Origin: an uncultured virus (IMG/VR IMGVR_UViG_3300024346_006890)
Lineage: Duplodnaviria; Heunggongvirae; Uroviricota; Caudoviricetes
IMG/VR virus record: IMGVR_UViG_3300024346_006890
Length of the DNA: 64,000 nt
Direction: 5' to 3' (one strand)
Each line of letters begins with the position of its first letter. Within the stretch, counting starts at the first letter, position 1. Of this stretch, positions 4,725 to 27,366 are shown one piece after another. The notes below the pieces were generated by a model that saw nothing but the letters and a program-made list of their open reading frames with translations, was not told the DNA's origin and made no database searches. The translations under genes and the position numbers were made by a program.

Positions 4725-4752
4725 GCCTAAAGAATTTGTCTGTAAATACAAT

Positions 4753-5625
4753 ATGCAAAATCAATCTCATAAATATTTTAAAATAAGCGATTTAAATATC
4801 CCCCACTTCGACTATGAGGAATATGGGATAAACGGAGTAGGTAACAAGTGTCTTCCTATAATCTCCATGGACAAGTATATTGATCATTCTCTCGATGATA
4901 CTCTCCATATAGAATGTTGTAAAGGTCTTGCAATTTCTAACAATTATAAAATGGGTATGGTATACGGTGCAATGCCTCCAGAAGAGTCTGTTAGATTCGA
5001 CGGAAAAAATTGTTGGACTGTTATGCTAAATCAACTTGAACAGTACGATCCTACAGGAAAACATAGAGTAGCAATTGAAGAGATTATCAATACAGTTACC
5101 AAAGAAGATAGGATAACTGCGGTTTACAAATATTGCTACTTTGCATTAGGATCTGTCATTCCATGGTTTTATGCACTATACCTAAAAAAGAGTAACTTTT
5201 TTGATAAGACTAAAGATACAGGCGTGTTGACCGAAGATGCAAAACTTTTTCCTAATTTATTAGAATACTTAGAAACTTTACCTTTTAAAACAATTGGGCG
5301 TGTGCTATTTTTTACCACGTATCCAAATGCAGGAGTTGCAACACATAGAGATAGTATTGTAGCCGAACACAAAGATCATAATATTAATCTTTTCTTTTCA
5401 GGCGGGTGGCGTCCTAGTTACATCTGGGATGAAATAACAAAGGAAAAAGTATATTTAGAACAGAATGCTAGAAGTTATTTTTTTAACAATAGAGATTATC
5501 ATGGTGTTGACCCCGAACCTATTTTTAGATATACGCTAAGAGTCGATGGTACTTTTACAGACGACCTAACAGAAGAATTAGGTCTAGAAGATGGTCATAC
5601 TTGGAAATGGTCTTACAAGAAATGA
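4753..5625 (+). CDS. Putative Fe(II)/2OG-type (HxD...H) oxygenase
   Basis: ATHRD...NNRDYHGV...RYTLRVDG. Start moved to ATG 4753 because the longer ORF runs through the terminator. Confidence 0.65.
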   Translation: MQNQSHKYFKISDLNIPHFDYEEYGINGVGNKCLPIISMDKYIDHSLDDTLHIECCKGLAISNNYKMGMVYGAMPPEESVRFDGKNCWTVMLNQLEQYDPTGKHRVAIEEIINTVTKEDRITAVYKYCYFALGSVIPWFYALYLKKSNFFDKTKDTGVLTEDAKLFPNLLEYLETLPFKTIGRVLFFTTYPNAGVATHRDSIVAEHKDHNINLFFSGGWRPSYIWDEITKEKVYLEQNARSYFFNNRDYHGVDPEPIFRYTLRVDGTFTDDLTEELGLEDGHTWKWSYKK

Positions 5626-6408
5626 TTACTTTCTAATTAGACAAATTATCCAGTAGGTAAAATCAAGTTCCCACCAATGGCGTCCACCGTAGTTAGGATT
5701 TTTAGGATCACCGTGGTGATTATTATGCCAGCACTCTCCTAGTATTAATGGAAATAGCCAAGGACTGTTAACACTGTTGTCGCCTGTGTTATAGTTCTGG
5801 TATCCCATCCATCTTATATGATTTAAACTAGTCTGTATAGAATACGAGTGGGTAGTAATCAATGCCGGCAATACTAGCAAATATAAGAATAAATTAATGT
5901 CAATGACTGCTAATACAGCGTAAGAAATCCAAATAATTTTTTTATAGTGTTCGTGTAAAAATACACAGTAGGGATCTCTAAGTAAATCAACAGCTGACCT
6001 AGCGTTTACATGCGGTGTTTTAAACATCCATCCCATATAGCTGTGCCAAAATCCATGCACTGGGCTGTGGGGATCACCGTCTTTATCACTGAATCTATGA
6101 TGATATCCTCTGTGTAGTGTTACCCAAGTAATAGGGCTACCCTGAACTGCTAATACACCAAAATATAGTACAATCTTTCTAACTAGCGGGTGCGTTTCGT
6201 ATCCCCTATGCGTGAGCATCCTGTGAAATCCTGCACTAATGCCTGTTGTTTTTAATGCAACATATCCAATAATTGTAGAGATCCACCACCAGTCAGGAGC
6301 TAGACCTGAAAATAAATTATACAGTGCCCACGCACCGACAATGTGTAACGGGATAAGTCCACCCCAAAGATGTGACTGTTTAAATATATTAAGGAATGAT
6401 TCTTTCAT
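5626..6408 (-). CDS. Membrane fatty-acid desaturase (delta-9/OLE1-like)
   Basis: His boxes HRMLTH, HRGYHH, HNNHH; DGDPHSP; GECWHNNHH; transmembrane segments. Confidence 0.9.
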   Translation of the reverse strand: MKESFLNIFKQSHLWGGLIPLHIVGAWALYNLFSGLAPDWWWISTIIGYVALKTTGISAGFHRMLTHRGYETHPLVRKIVLYFGVLAVQGSPITWVTLHRGYHHRFSDKDGDPHSPVHGFWHSYMGWMFKTPHVNARSAVDLLRDPYCVFLHEHYKKIIWISYAVLAVIDINLFLYLLVLPALITTHSYSIQTSLNHIRWMGYQNYNTGDNSVNSPWLFPLILGECWHNNHHGDPKNPNYGGRHWWELDFTYWIICLIRK

Positions 6409-6919
6409 ATTCTGCAACGTACTGTAGAATATTATTTACCGTATGCTGCCCTAACGGTTTGAATTTCCTATAAATGTCTGGCCAGGGTAAAAGACTAGAA
6501 GATCGACTAGATCTAATCCTAACAATAGCATCGTACATCATTTTATTGTAGTCATTAAACGTAATCCATGTGTGTGCATAGTTTTTAGTTTCTTCGATAA
6601 TCTTAGGAAGAATATGTTGTCCCATTATATAAGTTGTTCTAAATTTTTTAGGAACATACGCTCTTACTAGGGCTAGTGCAGTAGTATCATTTAATTGATT
6701 CCATCCTGCACTGCCTGCATACTCACCTTGTTCTGATATCATTACATAGTAATTCCCAACTGTGAACCTTCCTTTAGAAATTATCCTAAAAAGATTTCCT
6801 AGGGAAGACTCATAATCTGGGTGATAGTTTTCTAGTAGATATGCTTCGTCTATATCTTTAAGACTAGTTCTTAAAAATTCTACTATCTCTGGATTATCTT
6901 TGATAGAAACTACTTGCAT
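6389..6919 (-). CDS. Putative GNAT-fold protein
   Basis: Pattern YYVMI...YAGSAGW...ALVRAYVPKKFRT resembles GNAT motif A; TAATG-coupled to the upstream gene. Confidence 0.5.
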   Translation of the reverse strand: MQVVSIKDNPEIVEFLRTSLKDIDEAYLLENYHPDYESSLGNLFRIISKGRFTVGNYYVMISEQGEYAGSAGWNQLNDTTALALVRAYVPKKFRTTYIMGQHILPKIIEETKNYAHTWITFNDYNKMMYDAIVRIRSSRSSSLLPWPDIYRKFKPLGQHTVNNILQYVAEYERIIP

Positions 6920-8205
6920 TACCAATCTATTTGATACTTAGACATGTTATGTTTAATGTATTCGATTACACTGGGATCATTCATAGTTAGAACTTTATAA
7001 TCCTTGTCTACACCAAACCTAGCATTTGGAACCTGATCCTTGGATAACTTAGATACATCTTGATGAAGAACGACCGTTGCCCCTAATGATCCAATCTTTA
7101 ACTTAAAGTGAAAGTACCAGTCATTTTTATCTAGATCATAGATATATCTTCTAGCTGCCATCTTGTATGTTGACGCACCTATTAACTGGATCTTTTCACC
7201 GTTATTGTTGTTAACCATGCTCCAGCGTTGATAGTCGTCAGTGTTAAACCAGTTTATAACCCAATCGTTAATTGCTTCACCTACATCCACTCGGTCATTT
7301 AGGTATATAGAACATCTAAAGGCACAGTTTACATACTTTAAATTAAAAATTAACCACCACCAGAAGTCGTGTAAGCTGTACACCGGTACTGAACTAGTTT
7401 CTATATTCTTAACCATCTTATTATACCATTGTTCTGGAAAATTAGGGTTATGAACGGGCTCGAAGTCGTAAAGCCAGTTCTTAGTAAATTTTGGTATTGC
7501 AAAGTGTTTAAGAATAATGTCTTTATATTCAGAATAGTGTGTAGTGTCGAATTTATCTTTTATAGACATCAACCTTGCTCGAGATTCGGCAGAAACCATG
7601 GATGCATAAAAATCATAATGTTGATAAAATGATAGCCCGAATACTGTACCAAAAATACAGTCACCTTCGTCTGCTGTTATTGGTCGGTATCCTTGTTCAA
7701 TTAGATCGTCGTACTTGATAGTCATCGAGTCGATAATCTTAAAATTACCCCAAATAAACTTTTTCCAGAGTGTTGGATTTTCTATAATAGAGTGCTTACT
7801 AGCACAGATAACGATATTGGCTAATTCTTCTTTATTTAGATTTTTAATTAAAGCAGTTATAGCTAATGTACTGTCGATACCGCCACTATACATAAGAGCA
7901 AATTTGTGTCCTTGATGTATTAATTCTTTAATTTCATTTGCTCTAGCATCAGTTATCTCGTCGAAATGTTTGTTAAATGCAGGATCATACGATGGCATTT
8001 TAAATTTGTCGGGAACTGTTTGATTCCATGGTAATGACCATTCACCGTCGCGAGGAATAAATCTGTTAGGATTATATCTTAGAGAAAGGTCAATCATAAA
8101 TTGGCCACCGGGAGCTGATTCTTTTCTAACTTCTTGCCAAAAATTTTGTGAATATTTGTTATTAGCAACAGTACTGAATAAAATTTCCGAGTCTACATTT
8201 AACAT
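6919..8205 (-). CDS. PP-loop ATP pyrophosphatase (asparagine-synthetase-C-like)
   Basis: ALMYSGGIDS; ITADEGDCIFG resembles AsnB SGEGADELFG. Confidence 0.75.
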   Translation of the reverse strand: MLNVDSEILFSTVANNKYSQNFWQEVRKESAPGGQFMIDLSLRYNPNRFIPRDGEWSLPWNQTVPDKFKMPSYDPAFNKHFDEITDARANEIKELIHQGHKFALMYSGGIDSTLAITALIKNLNKEELANIVICASKHSIIENPTLWKKFIWGNFKIIDSMTIKYDDLIEQGYRPITADEGDCIFGTVFGLSFYQHYDFYASMVSAESRARLMSIKDKFDTTHYSEYKDIILKHFAIPKFTKNWLYDFEPVHNPNFPEQWYNKMVKNIETSSVPVYSLHDFWWWLIFNLKYVNCAFRCSIYLNDRVDVGEAINDWVINWFNTDDYQRWSMVNNNNGEKIQLIGASTYKMAARRYIYDLDKNDWYFHFKLKIGSLGATVVLHQDVSKLSKDQVPNARFGVDKDYKVLTMNDPSVIEYIKHNMSKYQIDW

Positions 8206-8954
8206 TATACCACCCATACCGTAACATTGTCTGCAATTTCTTTTAAGCTAATACCCATTTCCGGAACAGGCATTTCTAAACAATCGTAAAACATTTCTCT
8301 AAAACCCGATATATCATTTTTGGAATAAGTCTGCCACGCGATGCGTATTTCTTCTAATGCTTCTTCAACACTATTAGCATGATACAGAACATTTTTTATT
8401 ACATGTACCATACCTGAAGGTGCAACAGTAGAGTCGAAACATTCTTGTAATTCCATTGGACTACAGTCGCTTAGATAGTCGTGCAGATATTTGGACTCTG
8501 GAAAGATATTTCTATATGAATCTGAAATAGTAATTGCATGTAAACATTTAAGGACGAATAATGCATACTCTTGCATTTTTAAAATCATTTCTTTTCTAGT
8601 ACCTGTAGCAAATTCAGTAGGCCATCCTTTGTCTACAACTTCTGAATTGAAATTAGTCATGCAAGCAGGTTGTTTAACAGATGACATTAATGAAGATCCG
8701 TAAGTATTCTCCCCTTTTTTATGAACAGTGCCAAACATTAAACAATTCTCGTTAGTCATGTCTGTTACAGTATTCTCATTTAAGATATAACAAACTAGAA
8801 TAATCTTAGACGATAATAACTTAGCAGTTTCAAACATAATCCACGGGTCTAAATTATCCACAATAAGGAATCTATCTAGGGGTGGTGAAAACAAAACATA
8901 ATGATTTTTTGAATTCGTACTTGCAGGGTAATACCTTTTAATTTTTTTATTCAT
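8205..8954 (-). CDS. Hypothetical protein, translationally coupled to the PP-loop gene
   Basis: 249-aa ORF in the operon; TAATG overlap. Confidence 0.7.
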   Translation of the reverse strand: MNKKIKRYYPASTNSKNHYVLFSPPLDRFLIVDNLDPWIMFETAKLLSSKIILVCYILNENTVTDMTNENCLMFGTVHKKGENTYGSSLMSSVKQPACMTNFNSEVVDKGWPTEFATGTRKEMILKMQEYALFVLKCLHAITISDSYRNIFPESKYLHDYLSDCSPMELQECFDSTVAPSGMVHVIKNVLYHANSVEEALEEIRIAWQTYSKNDISGFREMFYDCLEMPVPEMGISLKEIADNVTVWVV

Positions 8955-8955
8955 T

Positions 8956-9816
8956 TTATATCCCTAAAATTGATCTTGCTTCGGCAGGAGATGCAGGTTC
9001 GTTACCCATATCTCGAATAATTCGAACTGCTTTTTCTACTAATTGTGCATTAGTTTCAGCTAATACACCTTTACTAAGATAGATGTTATCTTCGAGCCCA
9101 ACACGAGCATGACCACCACTTATTGTGCTTAGGGCAACAAATGGCATCTGCATAGAGCCTATACCAAACGCATACCATGTACTATCTCTAGGTAGCATCT
9201 GTTTAGCATATTCTAATGTAGCAGGATTAGCACTCCACCCCCATTTAATGCCGCTGGCAATTTGCCAAAGAGGCTGTCCTGTTATAGTGCCTTCCTGTAT
9301 AAACATTTTAGCAATTTCTAAATCGCCGCTGTCGAAAATTTCTAGTTCAGGTTTAACACCGACACTCTGCACAGCTTTAGCCATTTCTCTAGCAACTGCA
9401 ATACTGTTAACTGTAATGTTCTGCGGGCCCCTATTCATAGTGTTTAAATCTAAGCTACAAATATCGGGCCTTAGTTCTAAAATGTGTGCTACTCGTTTTT
9501 CTGCAGGTTGAAAGTTAGGGTAAGAATTACCAAATATAACATTTGCTGGGCCAGTGGCTCCAGGTCCAGTAGTTAAGTTGATCAATACATCGGTATTTTT
9601 TTCTTTAATGCGATCAACAACTTCTTTGTAAAGATCGAGCTTCATGCTAGGTCTTGCAGTCTGCGGATCACGTACATGAATGTGTACCACTGCTGCACCT
9701 GCTGCGGCAGCATCTAAAGCACTATTGGCAATTTGTTCAGGAGTTACCGGCAGATGCGGTGTCTGTTCTATAGTTGTGCCTGCGCCTGTTACAGCACAAG
9801 TTAAGATAGTCTTCAT
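8956..9816 (-). CDS. Beta-keto acid cleavage enzyme family (BKACE/DUF849, Kce-like)
   Basis: TCAVTG, LPVTPEQIA, AGAAVVHIHVRD, GVKPELEIFD and GGHARVGLEDN. Confidence 0.92.
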   Translation of the reverse strand: MKTILTCAVTGAGTTIEQTPHLPVTPEQIANSALDAAAAGAAVVHIHVRDPQTARPSMKLDLYKEVVDRIKEKNTDVLINLTTGPGATGPANVIFGNSYPNFQPAEKRVAHILELRPDICSLDLNTMNRGPQNITVNSIAVAREMAKAVQSVGVKPELEIFDSGDLEIAKMFIQEGTITGQPLWQIASGIKWGWSANPATLEYAKQMLPRDSTWYAFGIGSMQMPFVALSTISGGHARVGLEDNIYLSKGVLAETNAQLVEKAVRIIRDMGNEPASPAEARSILGI

Positions 9817-10556
9817 GCTAGCCTTCCGCCATCCACTTTAATAATTTCCCCAGTAATGTACGGCATACTAGTTACTAACGATTTTATAACAGTTGCTATT
9901 TCTAATCCTGTTCCTACTCTACCTAACGGTATATCGGCTGATACTTTATCATTAAAACCTGGATCTTTGTTAATTCCCGATGTTGCTTTTTCTAAAAATC
10001 CAGGAGCTACACCGAGTACTCTAACATTAGGTGCAAGTCCTCTTGCTAATGTTTTAGTAAGCGAGTTAATTCCAGCTTTGGATGCAGCATACGCTAAGTT
10101 ATTATTTTTTCCGCTATACGCAGATGTTGAGCTAATATTAATCACTAGCCCGTTAGACTCTTTAAGCAATCCTAAGAATTCTCTAATTGTAACAAAAGTA
10201 CCTTTAAGATTAGTTTCGATAATTGAATTAAAAATATCATCTGATAATTTATCGATATGACTGACAGGAACCACTTTGCTAATACCTGCTGCATTAATTA
10301 ATACATCGCACCTACCAAATAGTACTTTAACTATTGCGACAGCATTTTTAATACTTTCAGTGTCAGTAACTGATGCAAGGATTGCTTTGTGATTAAGATG
10401 TTGATTTGGTAAGAGTTTAATCATATCCTCTGCCTCAGTTAGATTTCTTCTAACTAGTGCAACTATAGTCATACCTTCAGCAGCCAAAATTTCAGCAGAG
10501 GCATATCCAATTTGTCCGCAACCACCTGTAATTACAACTACTTTATTCTGATTCAT
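9813..10556 (-). CDS. Short-chain dehydrogenase/reductase (FabG-like)
   Basis: TGGCGQIG, INAAG, NISS, YAASK and YITGEIIKVDGG. Confidence 0.92.
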   Translation of the reverse strand: MNQNKVVVITGGCGQIGYASAEILAAEGMTIVALVRRNLTEAEDMIKLLPNQHLNHKAILASVTDTESIKNAVAIVKVLFGRCDVLINAAGISKVVPVSHIDKLSDDIFNSIIETNLKGTFVTIREFLGLLKESNGLVINISSTSAYSGKNNNLAYAASKAGINSLTKTLARGLAPNVRVLGVAPGFLEKATSGINKDPGFNDKVSADIPLGRVGTGLEIATVIKSLVTSMPYITGEIIKVDGGRLA

Positions 10557-10579: not shown

Positions 10580-12010
10580 TTATCCTAAATTTTTATCAAG
10601 TAATAATTTTGTAGCCATATTAACAAGAGACTTTTTATCAATTTTACCGATTGGAGAAAGAGGCCATTTATCAACAATAAAGAAGTCTCTAGGAATCTCG
10701 TATATAGGAAGATTTTTCATAGCATATTCTTTAATTAGATTAGTAGCAATTTCTTCTTTAAGTTTTAAAAATGCATAAGGTCGAACTCCCTTAATGTCAT
10801 CAGGTAATCCAACTACTACGGATGTCTCAACAAATCCGTGTTGCTCCAATACTGATTCAATTTTACTAGGATAAATGTTATGGCCACCACATACGAACAT
10901 ATCATCTGCCCTGCCCTCAAAATAATAAAACCCATCCTGATCAATTGAAAATAGATCTTCTGTTATAAAATAACCGTCACTAGTTGTTTTAAGATCTTTA
11001 TTTGTATAAGAAGATAGCATTGAAGGGCTTTTAATCTCTAGTACTCCATCTGCTAGTCTATAAGATATCCCCTCGATAGGAAAGCCGACACTAAAGTCAG
11101 GAGTAGGTAACGTCGGATGCTTGCCAAAGATGCCAGGACCTACTTCTGTAATCCCATATGCAATTCTTACAGCAGCCATTGGAAATTTTTCTTTCACTGA
11201 ATAAAACAATTTTCTACTTACTGGGGCAGACGCCATAACTATTTGCCTTACACTTGATACGTCAACAGTTTGTACTAGATCTAGAATTGAAGCCATCATA
11301 GACGGGACTGATGTAATAAGATTTACAGAATAAGATTGAATAGCGTTAACAAATGTAGATGCTTCGAAGAATGGAAGTAATATAGCAGTACCGTTTCCTA
11401 GTAGTGATGTTTCTAAAACTGAAAGCCCATTCATATGATAACATGGAGCAGCTATTAACATTCTAATCCGTGAAAAATTATTAGACTTAATACGTTGTTC
11501 TAAAATCCATCTGTGACTAGCGTGTGTTAATCTAACACCTTTTGGATTTCCTGTAGATCCCGATGTATACAATATAACAGCAACATCATTTATAGAAGGG
11601 TTTATAGACGTAAATGTTGAATCGTTAATTGAAATAATATCAGATAGTAAAATATTTTCAGCTGAATTGATTTCAGTGTCCGAAAAAACTAAACTTATAT
11701 TGCTGTCTTTTAAAATATAATCGATCGTACTAGACGGAAACTTTGTGCTTATTAACACAGCAGTATGCCCTGCCTTCAATATACCTAAATATACAATAAC
11801 AAAATTAATAGAGTTGCTAGCAATAATGCCAATATTTGATTTTGGTCTTCTTGATAAAAATGTTGCTATAGATTGTGCTCGAACTTCTAAACTATCATAT
11901 GTTATAGCCTTAGAAGAACTTTCTATAATTGCAACTTTTTGTGAATTAGGTAATAAATCTCCTAGATTTTTAATAGGGTAAGTTTTCGTAATATCTTCTA
12001 GTTGTTCCAT
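10580..12010 (-). CDS. AMP-dependent acyl-CoA synthetase/ligase (ANL family)
   Basis: YTSGSTGNPKG, YGITE, GRADD and PLSPIGKIDK. Confidence 0.92.
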   Translation of the reverse strand: MEQLEDITKTYPIKNLGDLLPNSQKVAIIESSSKAITYDSLEVRAQSIATFLSRRPKSNIGIIASNSINFVIVYLGILKAGHTAVLISTKFPSSTIDYILKDSNISLVFSDTEINSAENILLSDIISINDSTFTSINPSINDVAVILYTSGSTGNPKGVRLTHASHRWILEQRIKSNNFSRIRMLIAAPCYHMNGLSVLETSLLGNGTAILLPFFEASTFVNAIQSYSVNLITSVPSMMASILDLVQTVDVSSVRQIVMASAPVSRKLFYSVKEKFPMAAVRIAYGITEVGPGIFGKHPTLPTPDFSVGFPIEGISYRLADGVLEIKSPSMLSSYTNKDLKTTSDGYFITEDLFSIDQDGFYYFEGRADDMFVCGGHNIYPSKIESVLEQHGFVETSVVVGLPDDIKGVRPYAFLKLKEEIATNLIKEYAMKNLPIYEIPRDFFIVDKWPLSPIGKIDKKSLVNMATKLLLDKNLG

Positions 12011-13673: not shown

Positions 13674-13676
13674 AAC

Positions 13677-14197: not shown

Positions 14198-14268
14198 GTA
14201 ATCCAAACGGCATAAATAATTGAGCAGGAGTCATGACCTGCTTAATTTAACGTTAAATGGAGAAAAAT

Positions 14269-19395: not shown

Positions 19396-20088
19396 AATTG
19401 CTATATCCTTAAATTTTTCATACGAACGAAGTATTAAATTTTTATTTCGTTCTCTAATTTGTTCTTCGTACTCCGACTTAACAGCTACAAAAACCGCAAT
19501 TCTCTTTCCAGGAACATTAATACACGGCGAGTGAACAGATCTAATATTGTTTACATAATAAGGCTGTGTCGATTTTGGTAAAATACATTTAAAAATTTCA
19601 GTTTGTAATCGAGGATCATTATCATCTAGCGGTGTTTTTAAATCAGGAATTTTATTATATGGCTCTACTGTTTTTCGTATTAGTAACGGATTTTCTTCAT
19701 GCCTATCGTTAATAACATAAAATCTAAATCCATTTAAATCTAGATCTCTATGCCAAAATGCAACACCCTTAACAGTATCCCTGACAGGTAAAAATACAAT
19801 AGATTTAAGTTCGTGCCGTTCGATATTAAAAATTTCTAAGCAATAACGAGCAAATTCTGGGAACTCTTTATCAAAATTATCTAAAAATACTCCGTCATAG
19901 GCGCCGAATGTTAGATCCCACGGGTACTGATCTTTATAGACATTCTCAGAAGTCATTTTTTTATTAGCTGCGGATGATTTTTCTTTTTGCGGATAAACGC
20001 TGACAAGCCAAGATGTAAACTTGTCCACGTTTACAAAAGAGCAATCAGGTAAATCTAAAGGAGTATAAATTATATCAATCGGATCCAT
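19387..20088 (-). CDS. Putative Fe(II)/2OG-type (HxD...H) oxygenase
   Basis: FWHRD...NNIRSVHS...KRIAVF. Confidence 0.6.
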   Translation of the reverse strand: MDPIDIIYTPLDLPDCSFVNVDKFTSWLVSVYPQKEKSSAANKKMTSENVYKDQYPWDLTFGAYDGVFLDNFDKEFPEFARYCLEIFNIERHELKSIVFLPVRDTVKGVAFWHRDLDLNGFRFYVINDRHEENPLLIRKTVEPYNKIPDLKTPLDDNDPRLQTEIFKCILPKSTQPYYVNNIRSVHSPCINVPGKRIAVFVAVKSEYEEQIRERNKNLILRSYEKFKDIAILY

Positions 20089-20698
20089 GTTGTCTAGTTA
20101 GTGGAACATTTCTAAATTCTTGTTTTAATACAGCATGACGAATGAAAACAGTGTGAGGTTTTAATATTTTACCGTAACTTGTTTTATGAACTTCATACTT
20201 AGGGAAAGTGTTAGGCGGAATAACTGCATCTGTATATACTTCGTATCGTATCCATTCCGGACTTTTCTGTTGTAGGCGTGGACCATTTTTAGCATACGCC
20301 TCTGGAATACTCCACCAAAAGTCATAAATTCCCATTTGTTCTGCATCATCCATTGCTTTTCTAAAACAGGCAGAGATATACGGGCCGTAACCTTTTCCTA
20401 AAATAATATTATTATACCTTGAAGCATAATATCGCATAATCCATGCAGGGTTGACAGAAGAAAATGTCTGACATAGTATTGCTTCTAAACTGTTACCTTC
20501 GAAGCACCCTATTAACCTAATTTGTTTACCGTTATTTAAACTAAGGTCAGTGCCTTCTTCTAACACTGCAAGTATATCAGAATTCGACTCTTGTTTAGAA
20601 AATCGTTGTCTACTTTTAATAAGATCTATTACAGCAGTTCTATGAGAGGTATCTAAGATTATTGCTGTATAATTATTTTCTTCCGATGATACTGTCAT
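20075..20698 (-). CDS. Putative GNAT-fold protein
   Basis: LIGCFEGNSLEAIL...GKGYG...AMDDAEQMGIYDFW resembles a GNAT topology. Confidence 0.45.
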   Translation of the reverse strand: MTVSSEENNYTAIILDTSHRTAVIDLIKSRQRFSKQESNSDILAVLEEGTDLSLNNGKQIRLIGCFEGNSLEAILCQTFSSVNPAWIMRYYASRYNNIILGKGYGPYISACFRKAMDDAEQMGIYDFWWSIPEAYAKNGPRLQQKSPEWIRYEVYTDAVIPPNTFPKYEVHKTSYGKILKPHTVFIRHAVLKQEFRNVPLTRQHGSD

Positions 20699-21536: not shown

Positions 21537-21570
21537 CGGGTATTTAGTTTTACTAAATTACCCATAAAAA

Positions 21571-21882
21571 TTAAACTTCTTCGTACGTGATAGACCAAAT
21601 TATACCATTAGCTTCGTTATACATGTCGCGTTGGCGCTGATAGTCAGGGAATGTCTCATAGACAATCCTATCAAATTGGTCAGAAATCTCACGAGTTTCG
21701 TACGTTGTCTTAGTAATAACAGTTGTTTGATCTTTATATTTTTCGTATGTAAGAATCTTATCTCTGTAAGTTCTTGATAATTCTAAAATTAAATTCCATA
21801 TAGGACGTGAAGCAGGCAACTGCATGAAGTGCGAAGTCATTGCATTCGGCACAGTGCTTGTGATAATCTTTTTAATAGGCAT
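21571..21882 (-). CDS. Small hypothetical protein (103 aa)
   Basis: AGGAG SD and its own TAAATA element upstream. Confidence 0.75.
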   Translation of the reverse strand: MPIKKIITSTVPNAMTSHFMQLPASRPIWNLILELSRTYRDKILTYEKYKDQTTVITKTTYETREISDQFDRIVYETFPDYQRQRDMYNEANGIIWSITYEEV

Positions 21883-21914
21883 TTTAAACTCCTGTAAAAT
21901 TGCTCTTTTTATAT

Positions 21915-22658: not shown

Positions 22659-22697
22659 AATATTATTTAACCGCTCTGTTTTTAAGATATATATTTA

Positions 22698-23252
22698 ATG
22701 AATCAGCTTTCTACTCTTAAAATGTATGCAAAGAATAGGAAATTCCCAGAAGCAGTTAAAATTGGGATAGTTCCTAACGACTGGCTCAATTCTGCAAAAG
22801 ATTTTGCAAATAATTTAAGCAACACAAGCGACGTTGCTTTGCAACAACGAGAAGAATCGAATGTTAAAGGCACAGCAATAGACAATTATGATTCGCTGAC
22901 AATATTTTATAATCAGCGATATTTCGACTCGATGCCGTTACCTAGTATAATAACGCAGCTAGATGGAGTACATCATCTACGATTTGGTGTATTAAATGAA
23001 GGTGCAACTATTCCATTTCACATTGATGAACCATTTACTTTAAGATTTATTTGTGTCGTACAAGGGTCACATAAATATCATACCGAAACAGGCAACATTT
23101 ACCTCATGTCAGAGGGAGAATTTTGGTTCATCAACGGATCATTCAAACATTCTATAGAAAATACCTCACCTGGATACCGTATTGCCTTACTCGGAAAGTT
23201 TTCTAGATCAACTACGAATTTGAGTTTAATAAATGAATTACTACGAGCTTGA
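22698..23252 (+). CDS. Aspartyl/asparaginyl beta-hydroxylase-like cupin oxygenase
   Basis: IPFHID, GEFWFINGSFKHSIEN and RIALL. Confidence 0.75.
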   Translation: MNQLSTLKMYAKNRKFPEAVKIGIVPNDWLNSAKDFANNLSNTSDVALQQREESNVKGTAIDNYDSLTIFYNQRYFDSMPLPSIITQLDGVHHLRFGVLNEGATIPFHIDEPFTLRFICVVQGSHKYHTETGNIYLMSEGEFWFINGSFKHSIENTSPGYRIALLGKFSRSTTNLSLINELLRA

Positions 23253-24180
23253 CCCAAAGGATAATCATTTCAGCGATATAATGGTAGACGTTACGCATCG
23301 CTGTAATATGACTTGTAAAAATTGTTACATACCCAATCGAGACTATCCCGACATGGATATAGATAAGTTGATCGAGGCTATAAAACAATTTCCAAAAAGA
23401 GCAATGATGCGTATTGTAGGCGCTGAACCGACTGTTAGGAAAGATTTACCGAGTATAATAAGCCGCATTAGAGAAACAGGTCATAGAGCAACATTACTAA
23501 CTAATGGACTAAGATTAGCAGATGAAGGTTATGTTAAGACACTTAAAGACCACGGGTTAAATCATGTTTACCTAAGTCTTAATGGTGTAGATAATGACGA
23601 CTGGTATTACACCATAGATGAAATGAAGTGTGCTTCTAAAAAAATTAGAGCATTAGAACACCTGCATCAAAATAAATTTGTTATAGACACCGGAACTATT
23701 ATTGTTAGAGGAGTAAATGACGAAGCACCTTCTCGTTTATTAGATTTATATAAACGAAAAAATATTCGACATGCATTGTGTAGAATAAAAAATGTAGGGA
23801 AACTAGGTAGAAGCATGTTCGATACCGATGCCGGCGAGCATAAGTTAACAGTTAACACCAATTATACAATGGATGGATTAATAAAATTAATTTCTGAGCA
23901 AACGAATCTAAGTGTTGACTATATCGAAAGCTGGAGAAACAGACCCATATATGAAAATAAAGATCCAGAGGACAGCAGCTTTATTTTCCCATTAGACCCC
24001 AATAGCGAAGGTAAACTAATGCATCGAAGTGGTATTTGGTTTAAGATTGCTGATTGGAATACATTTGGAAACTCTGACGGTGTTCCGTTGCCTAACAACT
24101 CACGTCGAGGTAGAATGACTGAAGATTTTAAAGTAGCTCCAATGGCAGAGCATGTTAAAAAGAATGAAGGACAATATTAA
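23233..24180 (+). CDS. Radical SAM protein (MoaA-like core, no auxiliary cluster domain)
   Basis: HRCNMTCKNCY, GAEPT, LTNG and VRGVND. Confidence 0.88.
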   Translation: MNYYELDPKDNHFSDIMVDVTHRCNMTCKNCYIPNRDYPDMDIDKLIEAIKQFPKRAMMRIVGAEPTVRKDLPSIISRIRETGHRATLLTNGLRLADEGYVKTLKDHGLNHVYLSLNGVDNDDWYYTIDEMKCASKKIRALEHLHQNKFVIDTGTIIVRGVNDEAPSRLLDLYKRKNIRHALCRIKNVGKLGRSMFDTDAGEHKLTVNTNYTMDGLIKLISEQTNLSVDYIESWRNRPIYENKDPEDSSFIFPLDPNSEGKLMHRSGIWFKIADWNTFGNSDGVPLPNNSRRGRMTEDFKVAPMAEHVKKNEGQY

Positions 24181-25227
24181 ATGAAAACACGTAAGTTAAA
24201 TGGTTTTGGTAGTTTAGGCGTTGAAGTTTACGATTTAGACCTAAAAACTTGTTCCGATGATGAAATTAAAGAATTAGGTAAAGTAGTAGTAGATCAGCTA
24301 GTTGTATATGTTAATGCAAAAAACTGTACTGTTCCACCGGAAAGATTAAATCATATTGCACAGGTGTTCGGTGATCCGTTCGGCGGCCAAGATCAAAGTG
24401 CATACGAGATGGTTAAAGAGAAACGCAAACAACATCAACTAACTAGTAAAGACCTGCAAGTATTGAAAGAATTAAGAAAAATCCGACAGGGTTTAGAACA
24501 TAATCCCGGAATGATTCGTGTAACCGGAAAGCGTGACGACGAGGGCGATTACATGGGAATGTTTGCCCAGGGCGAATTAGATTGGCACAGTGATAGACAA
24601 GGCACTGGTAACTTTGTGCCTATGATTTTGTTACAAGCAGTTGAAGGTACTGAAGGAACATCAACTGAGTTCCTTCAAACAGCCGATGCATACGAAATGC
24701 TATCACCTGAATGGAAAAATATTATAGATAATTTAGTAGGTGTTCATAGATATACCCCCGGAAAAATGGCTCCTGGCTTAAATGCTAGCCAAGATAACAT
24801 TTTAAGAATGAATATGTGCCCTATAGATAATAGTGAAGTTCCGTTTGTTTGTTACAGCCCGGGCGGAAGAAAAGGTGTTAGATTAAGTTATAATACCCTA
24901 GACCATTTTAAAGGTTTTAACAAAAAAGACAGTGATGAAATATTAAAATTTATAATAAGCCACTTTATGAAAGACGAGTATGTCTATCATCAAGACTGGC
25001 AAAATGGTGAATTGGTATTCATGGATCAGACTATTACTGTACATAGGCGACCAACAAAAGATTGCAGTAACCGTGTTATGATTAGACAAACTTGTAATTT
25101 TGATAATATTCTCAGCAAAGGAACACAAGGATTACAAAATGTCGGATTTGAAACTCCTGGAATTATCGTAGACGGGAAGATGATTTCACATAAAGAATAT
25201 TTTGAGAAATTTAGATATGCATATTGA
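24181..25227 (+). CDS. TauD/TfdA-family Fe(II)/2OG dioxygenase
   Basis: LGVEVYDLDL, WHSD, TEF and WQNGELVFMDQTITVHRR. Confidence 0.88.
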   Translation: MKTRKLNGFGSLGVEVYDLDLKTCSDDEIKELGKVVVDQLVVYVNAKNCTVPPERLNHIAQVFGDPFGGQDQSAYEMVKEKRKQHQLTSKDLQVLKELRKIRQGLEHNPGMIRVTGKRDDEGDYMGMFAQGELDWHSDRQGTGNFVPMILLQAVEGTEGTSTEFLQTADAYEMLSPEWKNIIDNLVGVHRYTPGKMAPGLNASQDNILRMNMCPIDNSEVPFVCYSPGGRKGVRLSYNTLDHFKGFNKKDSDEILKFIISHFMKDEYVYHQDWQNGELVFMDQTITVHRRPTKDCSNRVMIRQTCNFDNILSKGTQGLQNVGFETPGIIVDGKMISHKEYFEKFRYAY

Positions 25228-26032
25228 TCCAGATAAATGGCTCGGCGGCGATGTTGCAAAAAAACTAAAAATTAATTTTGCACTATCTCATTTTATTATT
25301 GTTTATTGGTTGTTCACTGACTTTAGTTGGTGGGGACTATTATTAGGCATTGCATCATATGTGTTTATTGGAAAAATGGGAGCAGATGTCGGCTTTCATC
25401 GTTATTTTACACATCGCAGCTTTGAAGTACATCCATTGATTAGAAAATACCTAATGTTAAATGCAACGCTGATAGGTCATGGAAGTGTCTTATTATGGGT
25501 TGCTACACATCGTATTCATCATGCTAAAGCCGACACTGATCAAGATCCGCACAGTCCAATACACCACGGAGTACTTACTACTTGGTTGAGATCTTGGACA
25601 AATACAAATAAACCTAACATGATGTTAATGAAAGACATTATGCGAGATAGTAGCCTAATTTTTTTACATAGACATTATTTTAAAGTGTTCTATGCATTTT
25701 TGATACCATTATTAATATGCTGGGCGGCTGGAAGCATTTATCCTATTTTATTTTTGTTTGCGTTTCCTAATGCTGGATTTTTTAACGAAGCTGGCATGAT
25801 TAATTCTATAGGTCATAAGTGGGGTTATACCACTTACGAAACAAAAGATAATTCTAAAAATAATTTAATTGTTAACATACTAACATTCGGAAACGGGTTG
25901 CATAATACACACCACGCTAAACCGAATTTGTACACAACAGATGTTCACAGTAAATGGTATGAAACCGATCCTATGAAATATATTATTAGGTTAATTGCTA
26001 ATGACGGAAGCAGAGTGGAAAACAAGGTGTGA
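25217..26032 (+). CDS. Membrane fatty-acid desaturase
   Basis: HRYFTH, HRIHH, DQDPHSP and GLHNTHH. Confidence 0.9.
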   Translation: MHIDPDKWLGGDVAKKLKINFALSHFIIVYWLFTDFSWWGLLLGIASYVFIGKMGADVGFHRYFTHRSFEVHPLIRKYLMLNATLIGHGSVLLWVATHRIHHAKADTDQDPHSPIHHGVLTTWLRSWTNTNKPNMMLMKDIMRDSSLIFLHRHYFKVFYAFLIPLLICWAAGSIYPILFLFAFPNAGFFNEAGMINSIGHKWGYTTYETKDNSKNNLIVNILTFGNGLHNTHHAKPNLYTTDVHSKWYETDPMKYIIRLIANDGSRVENKV

Positions 26033-26717
26033 TTTAGCAGCTCTGTATAGAATTGCAGAGCTGCTAAATTGGAGTGATAGTATATTCACACATATTACTG
26101 CTAGAGTCCCAGATGAAGAAAATTCGTATCTTATAAACAGCTACGGATTATTATTCGACGAAGTTACCGCAAGTAATTTAGTTAAGGTAACTACTGACGG
26201 AGAAAAATTATCTCCAGGCCGTATTAATGGTGTTGCATTAACGTTACACAACATTTTGCACTCTAAAAGAAAAAATATAAATTTTATTATCCATACGCAT
26301 ACTCCTACCGGAGTTGCAGTTAGCGCAGATAAAAGAGGTTTATTACCACTTTCCCAACAGTCACTAACTATCATTAATAGTGTAGCGTATCACGATTACG
26401 AAGGTGTATTCTTTTGGGAGGATGAGCAAGAAAGAATAATTTCCGATTTAGGTGATAAAGATATCTTAATATTAAAGAATCACGGATTGGTGGCAACTGC
26501 AAGTAATATTGCTAGTTGTTTTAGCCGAATGTACATGTTAGAATCTGCATGTTCTATCCAATGTAATAGCTACAAAGAATCTACTCTTATAGGTATAGAC
26601 ACCATAAATAAATCAGTCAACAAATCATTCGACGGTTCTAACAGTAAGAGTACTGTACTCATGTGGCAATCAATGCTTAGAAAGTTAGATAGACTAAAAA
26701 TTAATTACAAAGAATAA
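26001..26717 (+). CDS. Class II aldolase/adducin-family protein
   Basis: DLAALYR, THITARVP, FDEVTASNLVKV, HTHT and LKNHG. Confidence 0.9.
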   Translation: MTEAEWKTRCDLAALYRIAELLNWSDSIFTHITARVPDEENSYLINSYGLLFDEVTASNLVKVTTDGEKLSPGRINGVALTLHNILHSKRKNINFIIHTHTPTGVAVSADKRGLLPLSQQSLTIINSVAYHDYEGVFFWEDEQERIISDLGDKDILILKNHGLVATASNIASCFSRMYMLESACSIQCNSYKESTLIGIDTINKSVNKSFDGSNSKSTVLMWQSMLRKLDRLKINYKE

Positions 26718-26718
26718 C

Positions 26719-27366
26719 ATGAACAAATTTTTAAAAACTCACAGAAATAAAATAATTGTTATCTTCCACCATATTGCAATGATAGCTGGATTAGCATACT
26801 ATAATTTTGCTTGGCAATACGTGCTTGCATCGATTGCAAGCGGGTATATCATGTTTGCAATTTTTGGACACGGTGGTCATTTGTATATTAGTCATAAAAA
26901 ATACAAGGATACTTGGTATAACGGTTTGTATGCATTTTTAATTAACGTCTTTACTGCATCCGGCGGAGCATTTAATTTTACCGCGCTACATAGGCACCAT
27001 CACAAATATTCAGATACTGCACAAGATCCACATAGTCCTAGTCAGATTGGTCCATTACGAGTTTACCTCTTAATGTGGCAACATGTGGAGATTAGTCCAT
27101 TAAGCATGAGGGACATGGCAAGGAGCAAGTTTATTATGTTCTTACATCGTAACCAAGTTAAATTGCACTTCCTCGGAGTTCTATTATTAGGGCTCATTGA
27201 TATTAGATTGGTTCTATTCATGGTTGCTCCTAGTGTAGTGTACACTATTCATGTTAACGGACTAGTTAATTGGCTAGGGCATAGAGACGGTGTTGCCAGG
27301 AACATTCCAGAAATTGCATGGCTAACACCTTTAAGTTGGAGACACGGGGATCACCATACCCATTGA
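26719..27366 (+). CDS. Membrane desaturase/hydroxylase (short form)
   Basis: HLYISH, HRHHH, DPHSP, NWLGH and HGDHH at the extreme C-terminus. Confidence 0.85.
   Translation: MNKFLKTHRNKIIVIFHHIAMIAGLAYYNFAWQYVLASIASGYIMFAIFGHGGHLYISHKKYKDTWYNGLYAFLINVFTASGGAFNFTALHRHHHKYSDTAQDPHSPSQIGPLRVYLLMWQHVEISPLSMRDMARSKFIMFLHRNQVKLHFLGVLLLGLIDIRLVLFMVAPSVVYTIHVNGLVNWLGHRDGVARNIPEIAWLTPLSWRHGDHHTH

What the first reader, a model, noticed from the sequence alone, without database searches (positions are those of the whole stretch)
4725..27366. A 22.6-kb biosynthetic-cluster-like island wired into a jumbo phage genome
Seen: about 26 genes sit between a terminator (4699-4724) and a sigma70 promoter (27363). 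They encode an acyl-CoA ligase, SDR, BKACE, three desaturases, seven HxD...H oxygenases, four PP-loop ATPases, two radical SAM enzymes, a class II aldolase, two GNAT-like proteins, a regulator and a binding protein. There is no integrase or transposase, and the genes carry phage-type signals (cUUCGg terminator, TAAATA elements). Established: these families activate, desaturate, oxidise, methylate and amide-ligate acyl or peptide substrates; the combination matches no pathway I know. Inference: the phage makes a modified lipid or small molecule (signal, membrane remodelling, anti-defence), or heavily modifies a virion or surface component.
Basis: partly seen in the sequence, partly recalled or inferred. 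Interest (0 to 1): 0.88.

Follow-up and report, generated by a model that had tools for sequence, protein, structure and literature searches.

The report
Mosaic enzyme island in marine phage
An uncultured marine phage carries a real 23-kb block of 27 enzyme genes, assembled from cassettes that sister phages and a few bacteria carry separately, and it probably builds or edits an amide-linked acid or lipid whose identity is unknown.

Summary
There are 27 ORFs at 4753-27366, between a cUUCGg-loop terminator (4699-4718) and a TTGACA-17-TACAAT site (27363). The named families are confirmed except the two "GNAT-like" proteins, which have no support. Five of the seven "HxD..H oxygenases" rest on motif and profile links only.

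The island is phage-native. Sister viral contigs keep the same flanking genes but hold about 11, 14 or 30 kb of different content. One sister carries only the left cassette and another only the right. Contigs from three marine metagenomes cover 3500-23499 with no joint.

So this is a hypervariable locus filled with separately travelling cassettes, not one fixed pathway. The most conserved unit is new. It consists of a DctP-like binding protein without a signal peptide, an AsnB/beta-lactam-synthetase-like PP-loop ligase, and a partner with no fold match. BKACE, SDR and an acyl-CoA ligase often accompany it. The same unit forms operons in rare bacterial MAGs.

My best reading is activation of a carboxylic acid and amide formation, followed by oxidative tailoring of an acyl metabolite or lipid (confidence about 0.4). 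The product is unknown. This scan noted a similar island earlier on other DNA.

The parts
4699..4718 (+). Left border: intrinsic terminator with an 8-bp stem, TTCG loop and T-run, after the kinase-like backbone gene 4236-4700
4753..5625 (+). g01: cupin-like putative Fe/2OG oxygenase from a large unannotated family. H198, D200, H250 and R263 are invariant. In several loci it is paired with a desaturase
5626..6417 (-). g02: membrane di-iron desaturase of the delta-9 (DesA/DesC-like) type with three His boxes
6389..6925 (-). g03: unknown protein; the GNAT call is not supported
6919..8217 (-). g04: PP-loop (SGGIDS) stand-alone synthetase domain of the AsnB / beta-lactam-synthetase / TsnB9 type, with no glutaminase domain
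8205..8954 (-). g05: conserved partner of g04. R28, S48 and K50 are invariant. No fold match in the PDB
8956..9816 (-). g06: beta-keto acid cleavage enzyme (BKACE)
9813..10556 (-). g07: short-chain dehydrogenase/reductase
10580..12010 (-). g08: AMP-forming acyl-CoA ligase (ANL family)
11970..12872 (-). g09: PP-loop protein (SSGLDS), paralogue of g15
12993..13673 (+). g10: regulator with a C-terminal LuxR/GerE helix-turn-helix. No homologue found in the related loci
13745..14197 (+). g11: membrane protein with two DUF2061 repeats
14257..15213 (+). g12: DctP (TRAP) type binding protein without a signal peptide. It keeps the GFR arginine and is 87% identical to its homologue in L002
15231..15252 (+). 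Internal TTCG-loop terminator between the convergent genes g12 and g13
15257..16633 (-). g13: radical SAM enzyme (CxxxCxxC), nearest to the B12-type methyltransferases. The B12 domain itself was not detected
16633..17781 (-). g14: PP-loop protein (SGGADS)
17834..18718 (+). g15: PP-loop protein (SSGIDS)
18703..19395 (+). g16: HxD..H protein linked to g01, g21 and g17 by profile comparison
19387..20088 (-). g17: HxD..H protein with only a weak profile link to g16
20075..20698 (-). g18: unknown protein; the GNAT call is not supported. Conserved in L113/L114 at 59% identity
20673..21536 (-). g19: HxD..H protein with a weak Asp_Arg_Hydrox match
21571..21882 (-). g20: unknown 103-aa protein, conserved in L113/L114 at 46% identity
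21915..22658 (-). g21: paralogue of g01 (hhalign probability 95%)
22698..23252 (+). g22: Asp/Asn beta-hydroxylase-type cupin
23233..24180 (+). g23: radical SAM enzyme, nearest to the MoaA / TrsS / Tes core
24181..25227 (+). g24: TauD/TfdA-family Fe/2OG dioxygenase
25202..26032 (+). g25: membrane desaturase with three His boxes
25995..26717 (+). g26: class II aldolase/adducin-family protein
26719..27366 (+). g27: short desaturase-like protein with three His boxes
27363..27391 (+). Right border: TTGACA-17-TACAAT promoter-like site before g28 (27397-27975), the first conserved backbone gene

Best explanation
The block is the variable filling of a conserved 'plasticity' locus in an uncultured marine myovirus. 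The locus lies between a metallophosphoesterase/kinase gene pair and gene g28. It holds at least two enzyme cassettes that travel separately.

Cassette A (about g02-g12) has a core triad:
- g12, a cytoplasmic DctP-like protein that should bind a carboxylate.
- g04, an AsnB/beta-lactam-synthetase-like PP-loop enzyme that should adenylate a carboxyl group and pass it to an amine.
- g05, a partner protein with no fold match.
An acyl-CoA ligase, a BKACE and an SDR accompany the triad. Together these three could interconvert an acyl-CoA, a beta-keto acid and a beta-hydroxy acid.

Cassette B (about g16-g27), together with the scattered desaturase/cupin pairs, radical SAM enzymes and extra PP-loop paralogues, supplies oxidative and methylating tailoring.

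I infer that the cassettes act in the infected cell's cytoplasm and inner membrane. There they would make or remodel an amide-linked acyl metabolite or lipid head group or acyl chain.

What is shown: the island is real, phage-native and mosaic; the cassettes are conserved; the enzyme families are as named. What is inferred: the direction of the chemistry, the common substrate, and the benefit to the phage.
For: Phage-native and mosaic:
- The left flank gene (3621-4226) has homologues at 87-90% identity in G002, G004 and G005, and g28 has homologues at 55-59%.
- The distance between the two flank genes is about 30, 14.7 and 10.8 kb there, against 23 kb in the window.
- G002 carries g04-g09, g11 and g12 but none of g16-g24. 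G004 carries g16 and g18-g27 in the same order at 45-85% identity but none of g03-g08 or g10-g15.
- All four islands contain at least one PP-loop protein, one desaturase and one cupin-like protein.

Assembly:
- Contigs of runs X1, X2 and X3 cover 30 of 30 bins of 3500-23499 with no joints.
- An X4 contig spans 4619-4829, across the left border.

Triad conservation:
- g05 sits next to g04 in 5 of 5 viral loci, and g12 plus g11 are present in 4 of 5.
- In 7 bacterial MAG loci, g12 is present in 6. g05 is present in 6: five by tblastn, and L089 by position and alignment.
- BKACE, SDR and ligase are present in 3 of the 7. In L090 the six genes lie in one strand-consistent run.

Chemistry:
- The g04 model has pLDDT 89. 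VIA Z-scores are 12.2 (TsnB9), 10.7 (beta-lactam synthetase), 10.5 (human Asn synthetase) and 9.2 (carbapenam synthetase).
- S111, G112, G113, D115 and S116 are invariant in 38 sequences.
- g12-type proteins start at the mature domain with no hydrophobic leader in 9 of 9 cases. TctC-type and second DctP-type proteins in the same loci do have leaders.
- The GFR arginine aligns with the one in solved DctP proteins.
- BKACE matches Pfam over its full length at 320.6 bits.

Lipid-type context in bacteria: an MBOAT protein in L090, and a fatty-acyl-AMP-ligase-like protein, an NRPS C-A-PCP module and a desaturase fusion in L091.

Phage delta-9 desaturases are experimentally shown lipid enzymes (PMC5776448, passages).
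Against: - No substrate or product was identified.
- Solved DctP proteins and known BKACE enzymes handle small polar acids (the latter is recalled knowledge), which fits a fatty-acyl substrate poorly.
- The cassettes occur apart, so a single product for all 27 genes is unlikely.
- g13 relatives stand alone in 77 of 80 viral loci. g01 stands without other island families in 3 of the 5 loci that are at least 20 kb long.
- Five of the seven 'oxygenases' have no family assignment above a cut-off.
- g08 scores about equally as a fatty-acid ligase and as an o-succinylbenzoate ligase.
- No acyl carrier protein, glutaminase or obvious amine-supplying enzyme is present in the island.
- No fused forms were found that would tie g04 to a partner (weak evidence).
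Confidence: 0.42

Rival explanations
1. The island is a bag of unrelated auxiliary metabolic genes. It is simply where this phage lineage parks acquired genes, and each gene or small cassette acts on a different host process. Desaturases would act on membrane fluidity. SDR, BKACE and the ligase would break down a host beta-hydroxy acid to acetoacetate and acyl-CoA for energy. The oxygenases would have assorted targets. There would be no common product.
For: - Sister islands show mosaic content.
- g13 and g01 often travel alone.
- Sister islands also hold unrelated genes: TctC-type periplasmic binding proteins with signal peptides, and a nitroreductase.
- Hypervariable regions with AMGs, radical SAM cassettes and Asp/Asn hydroxylases are described for marine T4-like phages (PMC7029224, passages).
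Against: - The same three families (PP-loop, desaturase, cupin-like) recur in all four sister islands.
- They also recur in the bacterial loci L089 and L093.
- They also recur in an island noted earlier by this scan on other DNA.
- The six-gene run in L090 looks like one operon.
- Multiple paralogues (4, 7 and 3) suggest repeated steps on related substrates.
Confidence: 0.3
2. The enzymes modify a protein or peptide, either RiPP-like or a virion or host protein. AsnB-like enzymes would amidate or cyclise Asp/Glu or a C-terminus. AspH/TauD-type enzymes would hydroxylate residues. Radical SAM enzymes would methylate or cross-link.
For: - g22 is an Asp/Asn beta-hydroxylase-family protein.
- g13 has weak matches to RiPP and protein C-methyltransferase radical SAM models, and g23 to peptide-maturase models.
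- AsnB-like enzymes do act on peptides (lasso cyclases, thiopeptide amidation); this is recalled, not tested here.
Against: - The intergenic gaps are too short for an unannotated precursor gene (ORF map). The only small ORF, g20 (103 aa), has no repeats or known leader.
- BKACE, SDR, the CoA ligase, a carboxylate-binding protein and membrane desaturases have no role in peptide maturation.
- No protease or transporter is present in the island.
Confidence: 0.12
3. The enzymes modify nucleic acid (DNA base or tRNA). PP-loop enzymes of the QueC/TilS type would work with 2OG oxygenases and radical SAM enzymes to hypermodify phage DNA or host tRNA.
For: - The PP-loop regions of g09 and of relatives give weak QueC hits: E 0.05 for g09, and 1.1e-5 for L003:3956-5029.
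- A QueD/PTPS gene lies at 38917-39423.
Against: - g04's fold matches AsnB-type synthetases better than tRNA or nucleotide PP-loop enzymes (Z 12.2-9.2 against 8.3 or less).
- No DpdA/TGT, FolE or QueE was found among the island proteins.
- Desaturases, BKACE and DctP do not fit this reading.
Confidence: 0.05
4. The block is an assembly chimera or bacterial contamination joined to phage DNA.
For: - Island GC is lower than the backbone: 35.6% against 40.2%, p = 9e-6.
- Cassette A has bacterial counterparts.
- Contigs of X1, the possible source run, break at 4725/4733.
Against: - Both flanks are conserved around variable islands in three sister viral contigs.
- Coverage is even and there are no joints in three samples. 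An X4 contig bridges 4619-4829.
- The backbone-type TTCG-loop terminator also occurs inside the island.
- The GC3 difference is small: 0.283 against 0.327, p = 0.04.
It rests on g27-g28 adjacency in L114.
Confidence: 0.02

Closest known systems
Hypervariable AMG regions of marine T4-like cyano- and pelagimyophages (PMC7029224; search listing and passages only)
   Same: Conserved backbone modules are separated by non-syntenic regions. These regions hold radical SAM cassettes, Asp/Asn beta-hydroxylases, transport-related genes and desaturases. Their content differs between close relatives.
   Different: This phage is only distantly related to isolates; its best backbone hits are at or below 37% identity. 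The locus lies between a phosphoesterase/kinase pair and g28. The PP-loop / g05 / cytoplasmic DctP / BKACE cassette is not mentioned in the passages I read.
Cyanophage delta-9 lipid desaturases, vFAD (PMC5776448; abstract start and passages)
   Same: Phage-encoded membrane desaturases of the DesC/delta-9 type with three His boxes.
   Different: There are three divergent copies here, 25-35% identical to one another. Some are paired with cupin-like proteins, and they sit among ligases. The closest isolate hits are only 28% identical: an Acinetobacter phage and Pelagibacter phage Mosig. Activity is untested.
Stand-alone AsnB-superfamily synthetases: TsnB9, beta-lactam synthetase, carbapenam synthetase (PDB 7ylz, 1jgt, 1q15)
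   Same: PP-loop motif and synthetase-domain fold, with Z of 12.2, 10.7 and 9.2. The expected chemistry is carboxylate adenylation followed by attack of a nitrogen nucleophile.
   Different: There is no N-terminal glutaminase-like domain and no Pfam Asn_synthase hit. Sequence identity is 9-12%. The protein is always paired with g05 and a DctP-like protein.
BKACE pathways such as 3-keto-5-aminohexanoate cleavage in lysine fermentation (the family's chemistry is recalled)
   Same: Full-length BKACE match. The best PDB relative is a 3-keto-5-aminohexanoate cleavage protein at E 7e-81. An SDR and a CoA ligase are neighbours.
   Different: The score is below the NCBIfam equivalog cut-off (252 against 382 bits). 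No other lysine-fermentation genes are present. The substrate is unknown.
Earlier scan note e1-5944895 (another genome): phage island of amide-forming ligases
   Same: PP-loop paralogues, a desaturase, a hydroxylase and a cytoplasmic binding protein lie together in an uncultured aquatic phage. That stretch shares 7 of 180 short words with g04.
   Different: That island has an ATP-grasp ligase and five PP-loop genes. This one adds BKACE, SDR, a CoA ligase, two radical SAM enzymes, TauD and an aldolase. I also find the core unit in bacterial genomes, so it is not phage-only.

Membership tests
AsnB-superfamily (class B) synthetase domain - g04 | PP-loop SGGxDS ATP-pyrophosphatase motif | tested here: met
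   SGGIDS is present. S111, G112, G113, D115 and S116 are invariant in 38 sequences. The profile aligns this motif to LarE, GMP synthase and Asn synthetase at E 0.04-0.14.
AsnB-superfamily (class B) synthetase domain - g04 | Synthetase-domain fold | tested here: met
   VIA-align: TsnB9 Z 12.2 (269 aligned, rmsd 4.6), beta-lactam synthetase Z 10.7, human AsnS Z 10.5. Foldseek is weak, with a best E of 1.3e-3.
AsnB-superfamily (class B) synthetase domain - g04 | N-terminal Ntn glutaminase domain | tested here: not met
   Only about 80 residues precede the PP-loop domain. There is no glutaminase Pfam hit. Structural matches begin at model residues 33-76.
AsnB-superfamily (class B) synthetase domain - g04 | Sequence-family membership (Pfam Asn_synthase) | tested here: not met
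   No hit even at E up to 5.
BKACE (PF05853) - g06 | Full-length match above the curated cut-off | tested here: met
   320.6 bits against a cut-off of 24.8, covering profile positions 1-274 of 274.
3-keto-5-aminohexanoate cleavage enzyme equivalog - g06 | NCBIfam equivalog score | tested here: not met
   252.4 bits against a cut-off of 382.
TRAP transporter DctP solute-binding subunit - g12 | DctP domain and carboxylate-binding arginine | tested here: met
   Pfam 175.5 bits and NCBIfam TRAP_S1 138 bits against a cut-off of 50. The GFR motif aligns with solved DctP chains.
TRAP transporter DctP solute-binding subunit - g12 | Signal peptide (periplasmic location) and DctQ/DctM partners | tested here: not met
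   No hydrophobic leader in 9 of 9 g12-type proteins. No DctQ/DctM hit among the island proteins.
Membrane di-iron fatty-acid desaturase - g02, g25, g27 | Three histidine boxes | tested here: met
   HxxxxH, HxxHH and HxxHH are present in all three. g02 and g25 are above the Pfam cut-off; g27 is not.
Membrane di-iron fatty-acid desaturase - g02, g25, g27 | Four transmembrane helices | tested here: inconclusive
   A crude hydropathy scan found only 1-2 segments above threshold. No dedicated predictor was run.
B12-dependent (class B) radical SAM methyltransferase - g13 | CxxxCxxC radical SAM core | tested here: met
   CKFKCKFC is present. Pfam Radical_SAM scores 37.0 bits against a cut-off of 29.5.
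B12-dependent (class B) radical SAM methyltransferase - g13 | N-terminal B12-binding domain | tested here: inconclusive
   No PF02310 hit in g13. There are weak B12/rSAM NCBIfam hits; the best is the PhpK family at 88.6 bits against a cut-off of 600. A relative in L089 does carry PF02310.
Fe(II)/2OG oxygenases - g22, g24 | Family match above the cut-off | tested here: met
   g22 Asp_Arg_Hydrox 27.3 bits against 22.6. g24 TauD 76.2 bits against 27.
Fe(II)/2OG (AspH-like cupin) oxygenases - g01, g16, g17, g19, g21 | Family match, or HxD..H plus a 2OG-binding arginine in a cupin fold | tested here: inconclusive
   The g01/g21 family keeps an invariant H..D...H...R. Sub-threshold AspH hits occur in 2 of 18 and 4 of 51 family members. 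There is no PDB sequence hit.
GNAT acetyltransferases - g03, g18 | Any sequence match to GNAT | tested here: not met
   No Pfam hit at E up to 5. The best PDB hit is one GNAT at E = 1 for g03 and none for g18. There is no similarity to the GNAT in L091. The fold was not tested.
Known anti-phage defence systems | PADLOC model match | tested here: not met
   Only generic hits: the radical SAM core to pVip (46.8 bits) and PDC-M51A, and the HTH to CARF models.
Hypervariable island of T4-like phages | Conserved flanks with non-syntenic, variable content among relatives | tested here: met
   the same flank genes enclose about 10.8, 14.7, 23 and 30 kb of differing content.

The most novel reading that the evidence does not exclude
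Phages and a few bacteria share an undescribed, carrier-protein-independent route to an amide-linked acyl compound, for example an N-acyl amine or amino-acid lipid, or a small amide signal. In this route an acid is made into a CoA ester (g08). BKACE running in the condensing direction extends it to a beta-keto acid (g06), and the SDR reduces that to a beta-hydroxy acid (g07). A cytoplasmic TRAP-type binding protein, recruited as a substrate carrier, holds the acid (g12). An AsnB-like ligase with a partner of no known fold amide-links it (g04/g05). Desaturase/cupin pairs, radical SAM enzymes and further PP-loop paralogues then diversify the product. The phage would use this to rebuild the membrane or surface chemistry of the infected cell.
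Probability: 0.2. Interest if true: 0.85.

Novelty: new variant of a known kind. Interest (0 to 1): 0.62.

Why it matters
Marine T4-like phages are known to carry many unexplained oxygenases, radical SAM enzymes and desaturases in their variable regions. This island links those genes to a conserved, testable core: a binding protein, a ligase and a partner, with or without BKACE, SDR and a CoA ligase. The same core also forms operons in bacteria.

If the core makes an amide-linked metabolite or lipid, three things follow:
- Viruses would be shown to run a multi-step biosynthetic chemistry inside abundant ocean bacteria.
- A large orphan PP-loop family would gain a function. That family has at least 479 clusters at 90% identity.
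- A solute-binding-protein fold would be shown working inside the cell.

If the genes are unrelated AMGs, the locus is still a clear example of cassette shuffling at a fixed phage hot spot.

Tried and rejected
- Complex prediction for g04 with g05 gave no verdict (score 0.31 against a mark of 0.32). It counts neither for nor against binding.
- The g05 model (pLDDT 80) had no structural match above Z 4.3 among 48,161 chains. This is a missing match, not proof of a new fold.
- A profile of the g01 family against PDB sequences gave nothing.
- A search for longer fused forms of g04 gave nothing.
- The Atlas search for g05 gave no usable hit.
- Megablast of 4000-28000 against isolate phages found no match. 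tblastn of g04, g06 and g13 against isolate phages also found none.
- G001, the nearest held record, is identical only to window 41073-64000 and does not reach the island.
- hhalign of the g01 profile against the N-terminal half of the 597-aa desaturase fusion in L091 found no relation.
- The T4 late-promoter motif TATAAATA is under-represented: 2 copies against 9.5 expected.
- There are no tRNA genes in the window.
- A terminase search of the five MAGs found none on the contigs that carry the cassette, so I dropped the idea that those contigs are mis-binned phages.
- Literature searches found no paper describing this cassette, judged from listings and abstract starts only. 'BKACE' + 'phage' gave 2 papers, of which 1 was listed, on phosphonates. 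'jumbo phage' / 'asparagine synthetase' / 'radical SAM' / 'desaturase' gave 1 irrelevant paper. The phage / TRAP / DctP / AMG search gave 18 papers with 10 listed.
- Run X4 left 14 of 30 bins uncovered. I draw no conclusion from that.

Full report
WHAT IS THERE

The window is phage DNA. Outside the flagged block every gene is on the + strand. PHROGs profiles identify a prohead protease, an ATP-dependent DNA ligase, baseplate and tail-fibre proteins, a QueD-like enzyme and an endonuclease. An IMG/VR virus record (G001) is 100% identical to window 41073-64000.

Isolate phages are only distant relatives:
- The ligase is at most 37% identical to any isolate protein.
- One conserved protein is 33% identical to its homologues in about 285-kb Pseudomonas phages.
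- Megablast of 4000-28000 finds nothing.

Whether the phage is 'jumbo' cannot be read from 64 kb. CheckV completeness figures shown for related fragments imply roughly 190-360 kb: 24 kb = 13%, 63 kb = 18%, 83 kb = 23%. These figures are rough.

THE BLOCK

There are 27 ORFs from 4753 to 27366, arranged in seven alternating transcription units:
- g01 (+)
- g02-g09 (-)
- g10-g12 (+)
- g13-g14 (-)
- g15-g16 (+)
- g17-g21 (-)
- g22-g27 (+)

The left border is a clean terminator at 4699-4718 with a TTCG loop. Terminators of the same style occur at 734-757 in the backbone and at 15231-15252 between g12 and g13. The right border is a TTGACA-17-TACAAT site at 27363, just before g28.

Thirteen proteins pass Pfam cut-offs: two desaturases, BKACE, SDR, an AMP-forming ligase, a LuxR/GerE regulator, DUF2061, DctP, two radical SAM enzymes, an Asp/Asn-hydroxylase-type cupin, TauD and a class II aldolase.

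g27 is a third desaturase-like protein, on paralogy and its His boxes.

g04, g09, g14 and g15 carry PP-loop motifs and are linked by profile comparison.

g01, g21, g16 and g17 form a loose family. Its g01/g21 branch keeps an invariant H-x-D...H...R across 18 sequences. That branch has 578 representative clusters at E up to 0.001. None of the members I sampled reaches the AspH cut-off: 4 of 51 gave sub-threshold hits. One member is fused to a Rieske ring-hydroxylating oxygenase. I therefore call these four proteins probable oxygenases, not proven ones.

The GNAT idea for g03 and g18 found no support.

No integrase or transposase was detected.

IS IT REALLY PART OF THE PHAGE?

Yes, on three lines of evidence.

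1. Conserved flanks around variable content.
- Five viral records were searched for both flank genes.
- In G002, G004 and G005 the flanking phosphoesterase (3621-4226) is 87-90% identical and g28 is 55-59% identical.
- The two genes lie about 30, 14.7 and 10.8 kb apart there, against 23 kb in the window.
- G003 and G006 are more distant, with the phosphoesterase at 41% identity.

2. Even read-derived coverage.
- Contigs of marine-metagenome runs X1-X3 cover all 30 bins of 3500-23499 at 99% identity or more, with no joints.
- X1 may be the source sample.
- A contig from a fourth run, X4, spans 4619-4829 across the left junction.
- X1's own contigs break at 4725/4733, at the hairpin and T-run. 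I read this as an assembly-graph break, because depth stays even there.

3. Composition. The island differs only modestly from the backbone: GC 35.6% against 40.2%, and GC3 0.283 against 0.327.

It rests on the g27-g28 adjacency in L114.

IT IS A MOSAIC

- G002 holds homologues of g04-g09, g11 and g12, plus extra PP-loop and g01-like genes. It holds none of g16-g24.
- G004 holds g16 and g18-g27 in the same order at 45-85% identity, and none of g03-g08 or g10-g15.
- G005 holds only a PP-loop gene, a g01-like gene, a desaturase and a g19-like gene.

The window's island is therefore cassette A joined to cassette B. All four islands contain at least one PP-loop protein, one desaturase and one cupin-like protein.

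Other genes move on their own:
- Relatives of g13 were found in 107 viral stretches. In 77 of the 80 loci kept, no other island family lies within 10 kb. In 50 of the 80 the gene sits just downstream of a conserved neighbour that I take to be a gp32-like gene. That label is my reading of the sequence, not a family search.
- g01 has 19 viral relatives at 55-68% identity. Of the five loci that are at least 20 kb long, two carry other island families.

THE CONSERVED CORE

- g04 belongs to a family with at least 479 clusters at 90% identity. All that carry a name are called 'hypothetical', and none has a Pfam domain.
- g05 lies beside g04 in 5 of 5 viral loci, and g12 plus g11 are present in 4 of 5. 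The fifth contig ends before them.
- A scan of one genome per prokaryote species found 7 loci in MAGs labelled Burkholderiales, Pseudobdellovibrionaceae, Bdellovibrio, Pseudobdellovibrio, Alphaproteobacteria, Xanthobacteraceae and 'bacterium'.
- Of those 7 loci, g12 is present in 6 and g05 in 6. BKACE, SDR and the ligase are present in 3. Desaturase/g01-like pairs are present in 2, and a g13-like gene in 1.
- The flanks of these loci are ordinary bacterial genes: AcrB, ClpXP, ABC transporters, an NRPS module and an MBOAT protein.
- No terminase lies on these contigs.
- GC ranges from 34% to 65%, so the unit has resided long enough in very different genomes to take on their composition.
- It is rare in bacteria: 2 of 151 genomes in one order.

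WHAT THE PARTS SUGGEST

- g04. The model has pLDDT 89. Its best matches are the synthetase domains of TsnB9 (Z 12.2), beta-lactam synthetase (10.7), asparagine synthetase (10.5) and carbapenam synthetase (9.2). It has no glutaminase domain. By analogy it should adenylate a carboxyl group and transfer it to a nitrogen nucleophile.
- g12. It is a DctP-type protein that keeps the carboxylate-binding GFR arginine. It lacks a signal peptide in all 9 g12-type sequences examined, whereas other binding proteins in the same loci have one. This points to a cytoplasmic carboxylate binder.
- g05. R28, S48 and K50 are invariant, and no fold match was found.
- g06, g07 and g08. BKACE enzymes interconvert a beta-keto acid plus acetyl-CoA with acetoacetate plus an acyl-CoA (recalled family chemistry). 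With an SDR and a CoA ligase, this gives a short route between an acid, its CoA ester, and beta-keto and beta-hydroxy acids. The direction cannot be told from sequence.
- Desaturases. They are of the delta-9 type, which has been shown to act on lipids in cyanophages (PMC5776448, passages).

Taken together, I favour a carboxylate-to-amide chemistry with oxidative tailoring, acting on an acyl metabolite or lipid in the infected cell. My confidence is about 0.4 for this functional reading, and above 0.9 for 'real, phage-native, mosaic island'.

The lipid-type neighbours in bacteria support the acyl theme weakly. These are MBOAT, a fatty-acyl-AMP-ligase-like protein, an NRPS C-A-PCP module and a desaturase fusion. 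The small polar ligands that are typical of DctP and BKACE argue against long chains.

RIVALS

- Unrelated AMGs parked at a hot spot (0.3). The mosaicism fits. The recurrence of the same three families everywhere does not.
- Protein or peptide modification (0.12). No precursor gene was found, and half the enzymes would have no role.
- Nucleic-acid modification (0.05).
- Chimera (0.02).
- PADLOC found no defence-system membership.

PRIOR KNOWLEDGE

Variable regions with radical SAM cassettes, Asp/Asn hydroxylases, transport genes and desaturases are described for pelagimyophages (PMC7029224, passages). Multiple 2OG oxygenases are described for cyanophages (PMC9146016, one passage). Three searches found no paper on the PP-loop / g05 / cytoplasmic-DctP / BKACE unit; I judged these from listings only.

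This scan noted a similar island before on other DNA (e1-5944895). I agree with its general reading. I add that the core unit also exists in bacterial genomes and that the island is modular.

Noticed in passing
L010-L086 (viral loci): Relatives of the g13 radical SAM enzyme hold a fixed position in many marine viral contigs. In 50 of 80 loci the gene lies directly downstream of a conserved gene that looks gp32-like; that label is my reading of the sequence, not a family search. An epimerase-like gene often lies further upstream, and structural genes lie downstream on the other strand. The function is unknown.
   Followed up: partly
L002:4906-5859, L003:16504-17445, L003:11248-12132: Sister islands carry TctC-family solute-binding proteins that have clear signal peptides. 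These are likely periplasmic uptake AMGs, unlike the leaderless g12 type.
   Followed up: partly
window 14257-15213 against L002:16035-16979: g12 is 87% identical between the window and L002, while the neighbouring cassette genes are only 39-58% identical. This could reflect unusually strong constraint or a recent exchange of this one gene.
   Followed up: no
window 35579-36283: A phage-encoded Bax1-I (BI-1/YccA-type) membrane protein, Pfam 178.7 bits.
   Followed up: no
window 38917-39423 and 39573-40589: A QueD/PTPS-like gene and a UvdE UV-endonuclease lie in the backbone. No other 7-deazaguanine pathway genes were seen among the window proteins I scanned.
   Followed up: no
window 996-1520: A dual-specificity phosphatase-like protein (PTP-SAK / DSPc) lies upstream of the island, near a metallophosphoesterase and an AAA_33 kinase-like gene.
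   Followed up: no
window 3658-3661: Contigs of runs X1 and X2 diverge from the window here (loose ends). This suggests a co-occurring strain variant at the start of the phosphoesterase gene.
   Followed up: no
P0290 (672 aa): One member of the g01 family is fused to a Rieske domain plus a ring-hydroxylating alpha-subunit. Another (P0297) is fused to a glycosyltransferase fragment.
   Followed up: partly
L091 (bacterial MAG locus): The g05-g04-g12 unit lies within about 10 kb of an NRPS C-A-PCP module, a fatty-acyl-AMP-ligase-like gene, a GNAT, two alpha/beta hydrolases and a 597-aa desaturase fusion. The setting looks like a lipopeptide-type gene cluster.
   Followed up: partly
window 41570-49144: A 2524-aa protein with tail-fibre and baseplate PHROG matches, followed by several large structural proteins of 824-1180 aa. 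Two of these are paralogues (both match phrog_9158).
   Followed up: no
L005:12563-13542: In another phage the triad is followed by a 2OG-FeII_Oxy_5 protein and a Cpn10 (GroES-like) gene.
   Followed up: no
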